Part shown: positions 1,366 to 2,340 of the stretch, one piece after another
Position numbering within the stretch: the first letter of the stretch is position 1
How the letters are laid out: every line of letters starts with the position of its first letter
Origin: a virus
Lineage: Duplodnaviria > Caudoviricetes
Direction: 5' to 3' (one strand)
Length of the DNA stretch: 64,000 nucleotides
IMG/VR virus record: IMGVR_UViG_3300037484_000435
Span: 64,001-128,000 of that record
Made by a program: the position numbers and the translations under genes
Notes under the pieces: model-generated
Databases searched by the model: none
What the model was told of the DNA's origin: nothing
Seen by the model: the letters and a program-made list of their open reading frames with translations, nothing else

Positions 1366-1516
1366 TTACGTAGCGGTGAATGAAGGGTTACTTCAAAGTA
1401 AACAGTCCCGAAAGGGTGCAGGTATCGAATCCTGCCGTTCTGTAATAGGAACGTGGCGGAAGTGGTTTAAATAGACGCACTGTAGTATCAACCTTTCAAA
1501 TAGCTTCCCTATGTAA
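1366..1516 (+). ncRNA. Y-RNA-like unit 2 with circularly permuted class II (Leu-like) cloverleaf
   Basis: TTACGTAG-[C]-GG / CC-CTATGTAA; TGAAGGGT/ACCTTTCA; ACAGT/ACTGT stem; variable arm CCC-GAAA-GGG; T-arm GCAGG-TATCGAAT-CCTGC; loop-closed acceptor CGTTCT/GGAACG; D-arm GCG..CGC. Confidence 0.8.
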
Positions 1517-1526
1517 CAAGAATCTT

Positions 1527-1624
1527 TTGTGGTGGCGGTGGTTAAGGATTTCTTCTAAAAGTGCCTTGGAAAAGCACAGGAGGTGTAAGAGATTTCCATA
1601 TGCCTTACCGAATTATCCCCACAA
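1527..1624 (+). ncRNA. Y-RNA-like unit 3 (minimal, single-hairpin payload)
   Basis: TTGTGG-[T]-GG / CC-CCACAA; GGTTAAGG/CCTTACC; linker ATTTCTTC; payload GTGC/GCAC hairpin. Confidence 0.7.
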
Positions 1625-1632
1625 TACAGAAA

Positions 1633-1772
1633 TTTCATGGCGGCGTCAGTAATCGGTTACTTCCTCGTTTAAAGGTGTGGTCACAGGTTCGAGTCCTGTC
1701 GCGGTCCCAGCGGATCGTGTAGCTCAGTTGGCAGAGCACATTGTTACCGTTACACCCAGTTACCCCATGAAA
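1633..1772 (+). ncRNA. Y-RNA-like unit 4 with circularly permuted cloverleaf
   Basis: TTTCATGG-[C]-GG / CC-CCATGAAA; GTAATCGGT/ACCGTTAC; T-arm ACAGG-TTCGAGT-CCTGT precedes acceptor CGCGGTCC-cagc-GGATCGTG and D-arm GCTC-AGTTGGCA-GAGC. Confidence 0.85.
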
Positions 1773-1952
1773 CAAATCAGACGGCGTTTAAAATCATCTC
1801 CTAGGGAAACCTAGGAACGCCGACCAGTTTGGGAAAAGGTTCGTGGCCAGAATACCATTGCAAGACAGGGACGAAGTGATGGGTAAGAAGCTGGAATGTT
1901 GGATATTAGAAAGAGTCCCCCAACATGCTTCACCTTTTCCTAATAAAAATAA

Positions 1953-2111
1953 ACTAGGCAGCGGCAGAGATGGATACTTCATAGGAACCGCCGTCCTGAA
2001 ATACGGACATGTAGGTGCAAGTCCTACCTGCTCCCCAACATCTATGGGAGCAGTGGTGAAATTAGTATACACAGCGGTAAGTAAGACACCTTCTCAAACT
2101 TTTCTCCTAGT
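1953..2111 (+). ncRNA. Y-RNA-like unit 5 with circularly permuted class II cloverleaf
   Basis: ACTAGG-[C]-AG / CT-CCTAGT; ACCGC/GCGGT stem; variable arm; T-arm GTAGG-TGCAAGT-CCTAC; acceptor CTGCTCCC/GGGAGCAG closed by a 10-nt loop; D-arm GTG..CAC. Confidence 0.8.
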
Positions 2112-2189
2112 AACAAGAAATCTGCGGAGACGTATTGCCTCTAAACCAAGGTAGGGAACGTTTGCTCCTAAGCCTTGGGCAGATAGAAA

Positions 2190-2340
2190 TATTGAGTGGC
2201 GATAGAAAGGATTTCTTCATCCAATCTTTCGGTCGTAGGTTCGAGTCCTACTGCTCCTTCGTTGTTTACAGCGTGGGGAGTGTAGCTCAGTTGGCAGAGC
2301 AAAAGACAATAATAGTGCCTTTCGATTTTTACCCTCAATA
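2190..2340 (+). ncRNA. Y-RNA-like unit 6 with circularly permuted cloverleaf
   Basis: TATTGAG-[T]-GG / CC-CTCAATA; GAAAGG/CCTTTC; TCTTT/AAAGA stem; T-arm GTAGG-TTCGAGT-CCTAC; extended loop-closed acceptor; D-arm GCTC-AGTTGGCA-GAGC. Confidence 0.85.

What the first reader, a model, noticed from the sequence alone, without database searches (positions are those of the whole stretch)
1366..2340. Four complete circularly permuted tRNA cloverleaves with no anticodon loop and no free CCA end
Seen: in units 2, 4, 5 and 6 the order is anticodon-stem 3' strand, variable region, T-arm, acceptor stem closed by a loop, D-arm, anticodon-stem 5' strand. The anticodon stem opens into the long shared helix. 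Two have class II long variable arms (Leu-like D loops) and two are class I-like with AGCTCAGTTGGCAGAGCA. Established: this permutation is the YrlA tRNA-mimic domain; true permuted tRNA genes are known from some algae and archaea. Inference: these are tRNA-elbow mimics that could act as decoys for host tRNA nucleases, T-box or elbow-binding proteins or modification enzymes. Alternatively they are precursors that could be cut and re-ligated by the phage RNA ligase.
Basis: partly seen in the sequence, partly recalled or inferred. Interest (0 to 1): 0.8.

Follow-up and report, generated by a model that had tools for sequence, protein, structure and literature searches.

The report
Phage YrlA-type tRNA-mimic Y RNAs
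The four "permuted tRNAs" are real, but they are a known kind of RNA: tRNA-mimicking Y RNAs (YrlA type) that partner the Ro60 protein, encoded here in a row just upstream of a giant phage's own Ro60 gene.

Summary
Units at window 1368-1514, 1635-1770, 1953-2111 and 2191-2339 (+ strand) each carry a T-arm, a loop-closed 7-bp acceptor stem and a D-arm in permuted order. Each sits on a long stem formed by the unit's own 5' and 3' ends.

After in-silico un-permutation, ARAGORN calls three of the four as tRNAs. The fourth (1368-1514) is looser.

Thirteen such units from three related phage contigs keep 92.5% of pairs, and 28 of 35 pairs show compensatory changes. A D-loop/T-loop contact also covaries (G18/U55 versus A18/G55).

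The units lie 0.76-1.73 kb upstream of a Ro60/Rsr gene (3097-4683) in a 545-kb phage. Two of them hit Rfam YrlA below its cut-off. A model built from them finds similar RNAs beside Ro60 genes in many other viral contigs, one to four per locus.

The lack of an anticodon loop, the lack of a free CCA end and the class II-like variable arms are all published YrlA features. So these are new members of a known kind.

They belong to a larger array of about 15-16 Y-like units. Earlier follow-ups in this scan had already reported that array. The decoy idea is untested, and maturation into real tRNAs is unlikely.

The parts
1368..1514 (+). Y RNA unit U2, a YrlA-like unit with a class II-like tRNA head. 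Terminal helix 1368-1373/1509-1514, bulged C at 1374, GG/CC pair, UUACUUC motif at 1388-1394.
   Evidence: Model R1 scores 29.2 bits, E 1.6e-4. Anatomy. The orthologue L009:3578-3732 is 68% identical with 5 double compensatory pairs.
1401..1484 (+). U2 tRNA-like domain. Variable arm 1406-1417, T-arm 1418-1435 (8-nt loop), acceptor hairpin 1436-1453 (loop UAAU), D-arm 1456-1478.
   Evidence: ARAGORN does not call it after un-permutation.
1635..1770 (+). Y RNA unit U4, a YrlA-like unit with a class I-like tRNA head.
   Evidence: Rfam YrlA scores 38.2 bits, E 4.1e-6 at 1654-1768. R1 seed sequence, 113.8 bits.
1673..1743 (+). U4 tRNA-like domain. Variable loop 1678-1682, T-arm 1683-1699, acceptor 1700-1706/1713-1719 with an extra C73:G-1 pair and loop CCAGCG, D-arm 1722-1737.
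   Evidence: ARAGORN calls it a tRNA after un-permutation. Anatomy.
1953..2111 (+). Y RNA unit U5, a YrlA-like unit with a class II-like tRNA head.
   Evidence: R1 scores 42.2 bits, E 1.3e-7. The orthologue L009:4101-4260 is 71% identical with 3 double compensatory pairs.
1987..2078 (+). U5 tRNA-like domain. Variable arm 1992-2010, T-arm 2011-2027 (loop UGCAAGU), acceptor 2028-2034/2047-2053 with C73:G-1 and a CCA-like remnant in the loop, D-arm 2056-2072 (AG in place of GG).
   Evidence: ARAGORN calls it a class II tRNA after un-permutation. Its variable arm plus T-arm match the phage's own tRNA-Arg(UCU) at about 85% (29 of 34 aligned positions). A18/G55 covariation.
2191..2339 (+). Y RNA unit U6, a YrlA-like unit with a class I-like tRNA head.
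   Evidence: Rfam YrlA scores 38.8 bits, E 2.7e-6 at 2204-2327. The orthologue L009:4748-4886 is 78% identical with 5 double compensatory pairs and none broken.
2225..2306 (+). U6 tRNA-like domain. Variable loop 2230-2234, T-arm 2235-2251, acceptor 2252-2258/2276-2282 extended into a longer hairpin, D-arm 2285-2300.
   Evidence: ARAGORN calls it a tRNA after un-permutation. Anatomy.
3097..4683 (+). Phage Ro60/Rsr gene (528 aa), the presumed protein partner of the units.
   Evidence: Pfam TROVE 2.6e-22 and vWA_Ro60 2.3e-9. PHROG 850 'RNA-binding protein', 1e-44. PDB sequence matches to Thermus phage phiLo Ro60 (9L5Y/9KOP, 4e-22), D. radiodurans Rsr (2NVO) and X. laevis Ro60 (1YVP).
1527..1624 (+). 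Y-like unit U3. It has the same stem scaffold but a simple hairpin head and no tRNA-like domain.
   Evidence: Motif scan and fold.
37..217 (+). Y-like unit U1. It has the same scaffold and a different, multi-hairpin head.
   Evidence: Motif scan. The orthologue is L009:2601-2777.
2661..2785 (+). Y-like unit U7, with a UUACAUC variant of the motif. It carries a T-arm plus a GNRA-capped mini stem, with the tRNA-like parts in unpermuted order.
   Evidence: Read from the sequence. In the homologue L009:5583-5707, the Rfam tRNA model matches positions 8-63.

Best explanation
The four units are genes for YrlA-class Y RNAs of a 545-kb phage. Each RNA has two modules.

The first module is a long imperfect stem made by the RNA's own 5' and 3' ends. 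It has a 5-7-bp terminal helix, a bulged pyrimidine, a GG/CC pair, an RGCG motif, a second helix and a (U/A)U(A/U)CUUC junction motif. It is the likely handle for the phage Ro60 ring encoded 0.76-1.73 kb downstream.

The second module replaces the anticodon loop end of that stem. It is a tRNA-like head (T-arm, closed 7-bp acceptor stem, D-arm, variable region) that folds into an L-shape with a real D-loop/T-loop elbow.

By analogy with characterised Y RNAs, the head is the effector side. It would bring a tRNA-binding protein or nuclease to Ro60, or compete with tRNAs for such a protein.

All four have a 7-bp acceptor stem, as M. smegmatis YrlA does. I therefore predict that RNase P nicks them in the acceptor loop. 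The phage or host CCA-adding enzyme could then give them a CCA end while the halves stay paired on Ro60.

Shown here: the structure, its conservation, the Ro60 neighbourhood and family resemblance. Inferred: Ro60 binding, RNase P and CCA processing, and the effector role.
For: - Neighbourhood: same strand as, and directly upstream of, a TROVE + vWA Ro60 gene.
- Family hit: Rfam YrlA matches U4 and U6 over the full model at E about 1e-6.
- tRNA-likeness: un-permuted U4, U5 and U6 are called tRNAs by ARAGORN.
- Covariation: model R1 built from these units finds U2 and U5 and their homologues in two related contigs. On the 13-unit alignment 92.5% of cells pair, against 67% when shuffled and 42-50% when slid. 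28 of 35 pairs show changes on both sides. The acceptor helix is 96% paired, with 6 of 7 pairs compensatory.
- Orthologue pairs at 68-78% identity carry 3-5 double compensatory changes each.
- Elbow contact: T loops with G55 always come with AG instead of GG in the D loop (6 of 6, against 12 of 94 for U55). This includes three unrelated viral contigs.
- Reciprocal test: R1 finds 74 matches in 80 other viral Ro60 loci. Most lie beside the Ro60 gene and all but one are on its strand, one to four per locus.
- Motifs: the published YUAY motif and a core of the GNCGAAN0-1G motif are present.
- Precedent: M. smegmatis YrlA with a 7-bp acceptor stem is cut by RNase P and gains CCA in vivo while bound to Rsr. 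Phage phiLo Ro60 binds two phage Y-like RNAs and host PNPase.
- The phage encodes a CCA-adding enzyme, RtcB and Rnl-type ligases.
Against: - The Rfam scores (38-39 bits) are well under the YrlA gathering score of 69. U2 and U5 are not hit by Rfam at all.
- The GNCGAA motif is only partly kept (RGCG core).
- U2 fails ARAGORN after un-permutation.
- Anticodon-like stem pairs are the weakest part of the model, at 74-75% paired.
- The covariation alignment was fitted to my own model, which biases it towards the structure.
- Folding energies are only 1.1-2.2 sd better than shuffles.
- There is no direct evidence of transcription, Ro60 binding or processing.
- RtcB, the ligases and the CCA enzyme lie more than 100 kb away and are not linked to the locus.
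Confidence: 0.8

Rival explanations
1. The tRNA-like heads act mainly as decoys, that is as competitive inhibitors of host tRNA-targeting nucleases or other tRNA-binding defence proteins. Ro60 would serve only to stabilise them. This can coexist with the best explanation.
For: - Hughes et al. proposed that YrlA, which is not cut by the Salmonella anticodon nuclease, could competitively inhibit it (PMC7790460).
- The heads keep the tRNA elbow and acceptor geometry but offer no anticodon loop to cut.
- The phage invests heavily in tRNA supply and repair: 40 tRNAs, RtcB, ligases and a CCA enzyme.
- The variable arm and T-arm of U5 copy those of the phage's own tRNA-Arg(UCU).
Against: - No experiment or sequence feature here points to a particular nuclease.
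- Anticodon nucleases read the anticodon loop, which these RNAs lack.
- Most units of the same array have no tRNA-like head at all. The shared function of the array is therefore tied to the stem, not to tRNA mimicry.
Confidence: 0.2
2. They are true permuted tRNA genes. Their transcripts would be circularised or cut and re-ligated (for instance by the phage RtcB or Rnl) and matured into decoding tRNAs.
For: - The 3' half precedes the 5' half, as in permuted tRNA genes of Cyanidioschyzon (my own knowledge).
- The acceptor loops of U4 and U5 keep a C73 + CA remnant. Orthologues keep a full N73-CCA plus a spacer that resembles the real tRNA-Asn/tRNA-Asn spacer.
- The phage encodes RNA ligases.
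Against: - No anticodon loop or anticodon exists. The anticodon-like stem runs into a conserved stem of more than 60 nt with covarying helices, so joining the ends cannot give a 7-nt loop.
- The phage already has 40 ordinary tRNA genes.
- The same stem carries non-tRNA heads in sister units.
- The architecture matches YrlA, whose crystal structure shows a tRNA mimic, not a tRNA precursor (10.1101/312249).
Confidence: 0.03
3. They are decaying relics of tandem tRNA genes, or tRNA-like punctuation marks that merely guide RNase P/Z processing of a long tRNA/ncRNA transcript. In this reading they have no function of their own.
For: - They sit in a tRNA island with units only about 10 nt apart, and no promoter or terminator signal rises above shuffles.
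- The acceptor loops resemble inter-tRNA spacers.
- Chen et al. warn that dimeric tRNAs can mimic YrlA hits.
Against: - No complete tRNA flanks any of the four.
- The 3' and 5' acceptor strands within each unit are complementary, which an arbitrary tRNA pair would not give.
- Compensatory changes keep every helix in orthologues that are 68-78% identical.
- A cut in the acceptor loop would split a unit, not release it.
Confidence: 0.05

Closest known systems
YrlA of Salmonella Typhimurium and its Rfam family RF02553 (Chen et al. 2014, PMC4201824; crystal structure in Wang et al. 2018, preprint 10.1101/312249)
   Same: - Encoded next to the Ro60/Rsr gene.
- The 5' and 3' ends pair into a stem with a G-C-G-containing motif near the 5' end.
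- The head has the order variable region, T-arm, closed acceptor-like stem, D-arm.
- It has no anticodon loop and no free CCA end.
- Many family members have class II-like long variable loops.
- The D-arm of U4 and U6 matches the near-invariant YrlA D-arm.
   Different: - Scores are about half of the Rfam cut-off.
- U2 and U5 have 3-bp D stems and are missed by Rfam.
- The acceptor stem is a full 7 bp.
- The handle is a clear two-stranded bulged helix, which is more like Deinococcus or animal Y RNAs.
- Five such RNAs sit in one phage, within a much larger array.
Mycobacterium smegmatis YrlA (PMC4201824)
   Same: [quoted passage not shown]
   Different: [quoted passage not shown] M. smegmatis has a single YrlA plus YrlB.
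Thermus phage phiLo Ro60 with Yrl1 and Yrl2 (PMC12135203)
   Same: A phage-encoded Ro60 has Y-like RNA genes just upstream. The protein is the best solved-structure match to this Ro60.
   Different: phiLo has two RNAs. No tRNA-like heads are mentioned in the passages of that paper that I read. Binding to Ro60 and host PNPase is shown there and not here.
Permuted tRNA genes of Cyanidioschyzon merolae and some archaea (my own knowledge, not checked with a tool)
   Same: The 3' half of the cloverleaf is written before the 5' half.
   Different: Those genes regain a normal anticodon loop and free ends after circularisation and processing. These units have a long conserved stem where the anticodon loop would be.

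Membership tests
YrlA-type Y RNA (Rfam RF02553) | Encoded within about 4 kb of a Ro60/Rsr gene | tested here: met
   The units end 757-1,583 nt upstream of the Ro60 start at 3097, on the same strand.
YrlA-type Y RNA (Rfam RF02553) | Head in the order variable region, T-arm, closed acceptor-like stem-loop, D-arm, with tRNA-invariant nucleotides | tested here: met
   U8, A14, G18G19 (AG in U5), G15:C48 in U4 and U6, G53, C56, A58 and C61 are present.
YrlA-type Y RNA (Rfam RF02553) | The 5' and 3' ends pair into a stem that carries the GNCGAAN0-1G motif | tested here: inconclusive
   The stem is met, with covariation: terminal helix 100% paired, 6 of 8 pairs compensatory. Only an RGCG core of the motif is kept; U6 reads GGCGAUAG.
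YrlA-type Y RNA (Rfam RF02553) | Conserved YUAY at the start of the variable side | tested here: met
   UUAC in U2 and U4, AUAC in U5 and UUUC in U6, each followed by UUC. The motif is described in PMC4201824.
YrlA-type Y RNA (Rfam RF02553) | Score at or above the Rfam gathering threshold (69 bits) | tested here: not met
   U6 scores 38.8 bits and U4 38.2 bits (E about 1e-6). U2 and U5 have no hit at E up to 10.
YrlA-type Y RNA (Rfam RF02553) | Reciprocal detection: a model of these units finds Ro60-adjacent RNAs elsewhere | tested here: met
   There are 74 matches at E<=0.01 in 80 viral Ro60 loci, scoring up to 94 bits. Most flank the Ro60 gene and all but one are on its strand.
YrlA-type Y RNA (Rfam RF02553) | Bound by Ro60/Rsr and modified by tRNA enzymes in vivo | not testable with these tools
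   This needs immunoprecipitation and modification mapping.
Permuted tRNA gene | 3' half encoded upstream of the 5' half | tested here: met
Permuted tRNA gene | An anticodon loop with an anticodon is restored when the ends are joined | tested here: not met
   The anticodon-like stem continues into a conserved stem of more than 60 nt. ARAGORN calls appear only after I add an artificial 7-nt loop.
Tandem tRNA junction (known false positive for YrlA searches) | A complete tRNA on each side of the T-arm/D-arm pair | tested here: not met
   ARAGORN and Rfam find no tRNA in 1366-2340. True junction hits look different: tRNA-Leu/Leu at G000:75612 and tRNA-Arg/Arg at G000:538846, the latter only a partial model match.

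The most novel reading that the evidence does not exclude
The tRNA-like heads are a matched set of mimics of the phage's own unusual tRNAs, many of which carry long variable arms. The heads would be repeatedly re-made by recombination with tandem tRNA genes in the island. After RNase P nicking and CCA addition they would act as charged or chargeable split tRNA-like adaptors. In this reading Ro60 gets a panel of heads that either directs decay or repair to particular tRNAs or blocks particular host tRNA-targeting defences.
Probability: 0.12. Interest if true: 0.75.

Novelty: new member of a known kind. Interest (0 to 1): 0.42.

Why it matters
Y RNAs and Ro60 are conserved from bacteria to humans, but what the tRNA-like head of bacterial Y RNAs binds is still unknown.

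This phage has five different tRNA-like heads and about ten other heads on one common handle, next to a single Ro60 gene. That makes it a natural comparison set. Pull-downs with each head could show which partners depend on which features of the tRNA mimic.

The locus also gives sequence-level support for two ideas. First, YrlA heads form a true tRNA elbow, because positions 18 and 55 covary. Second, the heads arose from junctions of tandem tRNA genes, because CCA remnants and spacer-like loops survive.

The four units themselves do not change what is known about the family.

Tried and rejected
- Megablast of window 1-4700 against phage records found no match.
- A single-protein scan of viral contigs with the Ro60 protein found nothing. 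The metagenome scan gave only two distant loci.
- DNA could not be fetched for the closest Ro60 relatives P0001 (94%) and P0005, nor for P0006, P0008 and P0013. P0002 (90%) was not looked up. The comparison therefore rests on L009/L010/L011 (80%) and L012 (77%).
- Expression: no RNA holder was listed in the first run search. The second found one metatranscriptome holding a tenth of the sampled words. Laid on the window, its contigs cover only 47-222 and 1905-2036, plus a 28-nt D-arm piece at 2282-2309 that belongs to the contig ending at 222. This is not evidence of transcription. The other runs matched only generic tRNA arms.
- A sigma-70 promoter and intrinsic terminator scan of 1-3200 found nothing above shuffles.
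- Folding energy alone is weak: z scores are -1.1 to -2.2.
- MAFFT alone misaligned the D-arms and acceptor loops. I replaced it with an alignment to a hand-structured covariance model.
- My first motif scan for the stem was too loose, giving about one hit per 10 kb of background. Only the cluster at G000 59.9-66.4 kb stands out.
- Two reviews on bacterial Y RNAs are not held in the library.
- A literature search found no paper on Y RNA arrays in huge phages.
- The idea that each head copies one particular phage tRNA was rejected. The 5' and 3' halves match different tRNAs best, and only the variable arm and T-arm of U5 show a specific likeness, to tRNA-Arg(UCU).
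Full report
**What is there.** The window is bases 64,001-128,000 of a 545,322-bp virus record. ARAGORN finds 40 tRNA genes in that record, most of them in an island that runs from about 515 kb across the record's ends to about 82 kb. The finding (1366-2340) lies inside this island. It sits between tRNA-Asp (ending at window 26) and tRNA-Glu (2580-2654), and directly upstream of a 528-codon ORF at 3097-4683.

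That ORF is a Ro60/Rsr orthologue. Pfam gives TROVE 2.6e-22 and vWA_Ro60 2.3e-9. PHROG 850 'RNA-binding protein' scores 1e-44. Sequence matches to solved Ro60 structures include Thermus phage phiLo, Deinococcus radiodurans and Xenopus.

**Checking the observation.** I located every arm in the four units by reading the sequence and with a rule-based parser. In each unit the order is: five nucleotides that pair with a later strand (the anticodon-stem equivalent), a variable region, a 5-bp T stem with a tRNA-type loop, seven nucleotides, a closing loop, seven complementary nucleotides, two nucleotides starting with U, a D-arm, one nucleotide, and the partner strand of the first five.

U4 (1635-1770) and U6 (2191-2339) have 5-nt variable loops and share an identical 22-nt stretch across positions 6-26. 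U2 (1368-1514) has a 12-nt variable arm and U5 (1953-2111) a 19-nt one. Both have 3-bp D stems.

I then cut each unit in the acceptor loop and joined the anticodon-stem ends with a generic 7-nt loop. ARAGORN called U4, U5 and U6 as tRNAs of classical shape. It did not call U2, which has an 8-nt T loop, one mismatched acceptor pair and only four anticodon-stem pairs.

Chance is excluded. The same rule set run over the whole genome gave seven hits on the + strand, none on the - strand and none in five shuffled genomes. Five of the seven are in this RNA array, one is a genuine tRNA-Leu/tRNA-Leu junction and one looks spurious.

**What it is.** Rfam's YrlA model matches U6 (38.8 bits, E 2.7e-6) and U4 (38.2 bits, E 4.1e-6) over its full length, though below the curated cut-off of 69 bits. 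It does not see U2 or U5.

All four units share a scaffold made by their own ends:
- a terminal helix of 5-7 bp whose sequence differs between units while pairing is kept;
- a bulged C or U on the 5' strand;
- a GG/CC pair (AG/CU in U5);
- an RGCG motif;
- a second helix;
- a conserved (U/A)U(A/U)CUUC at the junction with the head;
- a single-stranded AACAAGAA-like tail after the 3' strand.

The RGCG motif and the UUAC-type motif correspond to the GNCGAAN0-1G and YUAY motifs described for YrlA (PMC4201824). The bulged two-stranded helix is the classical Ro60-binding feature of Y RNAs.

**Conservation.** The closest Ro60 relative with retrievable DNA is 80% identical in protein and comes from contigs that belong to phages of up to 658 kb. 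Its upstream 6 kb holds the same kind of array, with clear orthologues of U2, U5 and U6.

I built a covariance model from four class I-like units with a hand-written structure. It recovers U5 (42.2 bits) and U2 (29.2 bits), neither of which was used to build it. It also recovers eight further units in the two related contigs, all on the + strand.

On the 13-unit alignment, 92.5% of cells form standard pairs. The figure is 67% when partners are shuffled and 42-50% when partners are slid by one to three columns. Of 35 pairs, 28 show changes on both sides. The acceptor helix is 96% paired with six of seven pairs compensatory, the T stem 98%, the D stem 85%, the terminal helix 100% and the anticodon-like stem 74-75%. 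The alignment was fitted to the model, which favours the structure, so I also compared orthologues directly:
- U6 and its orthologue are 78% identical, with five double compensatory changes and no broken pair.
- U5 and its orthologue are 71% identical, with three.
- U2 and its orthologue are 68% identical, with five.

**The elbow.** U5 and three units in the related contig have a T loop that reads UGCAA instead of UUCRA, so G stands at position 55. All of them have AG instead of GG at D-loop positions 18-19. Across 100 permuted cloverleaves parsed from all the loci I held, G55 came with AG in 6 of 6 cases, while U55 came with AG in 12 of 94. Three of the six G55 cases are from unrelated viral contigs. 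My hypergeometric estimate for this association is about 1.6e-5. This is covariation in a tertiary contact. It argues that the D and T loops really touch, as in tRNA and in the YrlA crystal structure (10.1101/312249).

**Comparison with other phages.** The same model, run over 80 Ro60 loci from viral contigs whose Ro60 proteins are only 28-43% identical to this one, gave 74 matches at E<=0.01. Scores reach 94 bits. Most matches lie just upstream or downstream of the Ro60 gene and all but one are on its strand, with one to four per locus. These units therefore belong to a widespread class of Ro60-adjacent phage RNAs, and having four such units in tandem is not unusual in itself.

Chen et al. 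already reported 355 YrlA candidates in 254 bacteria and 22 phages.

**How it most likely works.** In the systems studied, the Y RNA stem binds Ro60 and the other end binds an effector. In Deinococcus and for phage phiLo that effector is PNPase. The partner of the YrlA tRNA-like head is unknown.

I infer the same division of labour here. One specific prediction follows. M. smegmatis YrlA is the one characterised YrlA with a 7-bp acceptor stem. It is cut by RNase P in vivo, gains CCA, and both halves stay on Rsr. All four units here have 7-bp acceptor stems. U4 and U5 also have a C73:G-1 pair and a CCA-like remnant in the loop. The phage encodes a CCA-adding enzyme, RtcB and two Rnl-type ligases, although these lie far from this locus. 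So 'no free CCA end' may hold only for the primary transcript.

It remains open, and nothing here tests it. Maturation into decoding tRNAs is very unlikely because there is no anticodon loop to restore.

**Origin.** The acceptor loops of U5, of the unit at G000:61068 and of two orthologous units read N73-CCA (or a remnant), then a spacer of about nine nucleotides ending in UCUAU (UCUGU in one orthologue), then the 5' acceptor strand. The real tRNA-Asn/tRNA-Asn junction of this phage has a very similar spacer. The four-letter loop of U2 equals the tRNA-Leu/tRNA-Leu spacer.

The variable arm and T-arm of U5 are about 85% identical (29 of 34 aligned positions) to those of the phage's tRNA-Arg(UCU). 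The same loop sequence is kept and two stem pairs are changed on both sides, so pairing is preserved. These points fit the view that YrlA heads arose from junctions of tandem tRNA genes. This is inference, not proof.

**Context.** The four units are part of a much larger array. My motif scan finds about 15 units with the same handle between G000 59.9 and 66.4 kb, against a background of roughly one chance hit per 10 kb elsewhere. The related contig has a similar number. Only five heads in this genome are tRNA-like: the four here and one at G000:61068-61213. Earlier notes of this scan describe the same array and reach the same family assignment. I arrived at the array and the YrlA assignment before reading them.

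**Verdict.** The thing is a set of YrlA-class Y RNA genes next to a phage Ro60 gene, so it is a new member of a known kind. It is of moderate interest, mainly as part of the unusually large array and as a natural panel of tRNA-mimic heads.

Noticed in passing
G000:59927-66339 (window up to 2339), and L009:292-5948: About 15 units share one Y-RNA-like handle: a covarying terminal helix, a bulged pyrimidine, GG/CC, RGCG and a UUACUUC-type motif. Their heads differ widely. Only five heads in this genome are tRNA-like. The related contig has a similar number of units.
   Followed up: partly
window 1829-1945; L009:3745-3860: A conserved structured RNA of about 117 nt without the Y handle lies between U4 and U5. 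It has a closing helix and two inner hairpins. Seven pairs are changed on both sides between the two phages, and two loop stretches are highly conserved. It has no Rfam match.
   Followed up: partly
window 1317-1361; L009:3416-3460: A 45-nt block just upstream of the U2/U3 cluster is identical in the related phage except at one position. This is far more conserved than its surroundings. Degenerate GGGG(A/T)TTTCGG-like repeats precede it. It may be a promoter or regulator site for the array.
   Followed up: no
whole genome G000, e.g. window 4730-4915, 11732-11817; G000:37565, 516029, 538785-538968: The phage's own tRNAs for His, Trp, Pro, Gly(UCC), Gln(UUG), Arg(CCU) and Arg(UCU) are 83-91 nt long, with long variable regions. 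In bacteria such regions normally occur only in tRNA-Leu, tRNA-Ser and tRNA-Tyr.
   Followed up: partly
G000:47126-47202 (outside the window): A tRNA with anticodon CUA, which ARAGORN labels 'Pyl', suggests that the phage reads the amber stop codon through.
   Followed up: no
G000:61073-61145 (outside the window): ARAGORN's 'tRNA-Tyr(ata)' overlaps the fifth tRNA-like Y unit (61068-61213) and is probably a mis-call. In this unit a local 5-bp/7-nt hairpin stands where the anticodon arm would be, so the permutation point differs from the other four.
   Followed up: partly
window 2661-2785; L009:5583-5707: Unit U7 has the Y handle with a UUACAUC variant of the motif. It carries a T-arm and a GNRA-capped mini stem, with the tRNA-like parts in normal order. 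This is the orientation described for Deinococcus Yrn1.
   Followed up: partly
window 2790-2984 and about 3008-3050: An RNA-like element of 195 nt is closed by a 15-nt inverted repeat and followed by the same AACAAGAAAAA tail as the Y units. A reduced mini-unit (GGAG, U, GG, hairpin, CC, CUCC) lies just before the Ro60 ribosome-binding site, where the related phage has a full unit.
   Followed up: no
window 295-903, 5953-6762, 11879-12847: Three HNH endonuclease genes, two of them with an FCS zinc finger, are interspersed with the tRNA and Y RNA genes. In the related phage a Y unit, not an HNH gene, follows the U1 orthologue.
   Followed up: no
window 24685-26859 and 27400-29486: Two group II introns lie in tandem, each with Rfam D1-D4 and domain V/VI matches.
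   Followed up: no
L016, L038, L063 and this clade: A T loop reading UGCAA (G at position 55) always comes with AG instead of GG in the D loop, in 6 of 6 permuted cloverleaves beside Ro60 genes. This is a covarying variant of the tRNA elbow contact.
   Followed up: yes
window 47-222 and 1905-2036: Contigs of a sediment metatranscriptome library match these stretches at about 93% and 98%. A 28-nt piece of the first matches 2282-2309. No contig of that library was laid on the neighbouring protein genes. This is too thin to count as expression.
   Followed up: partly
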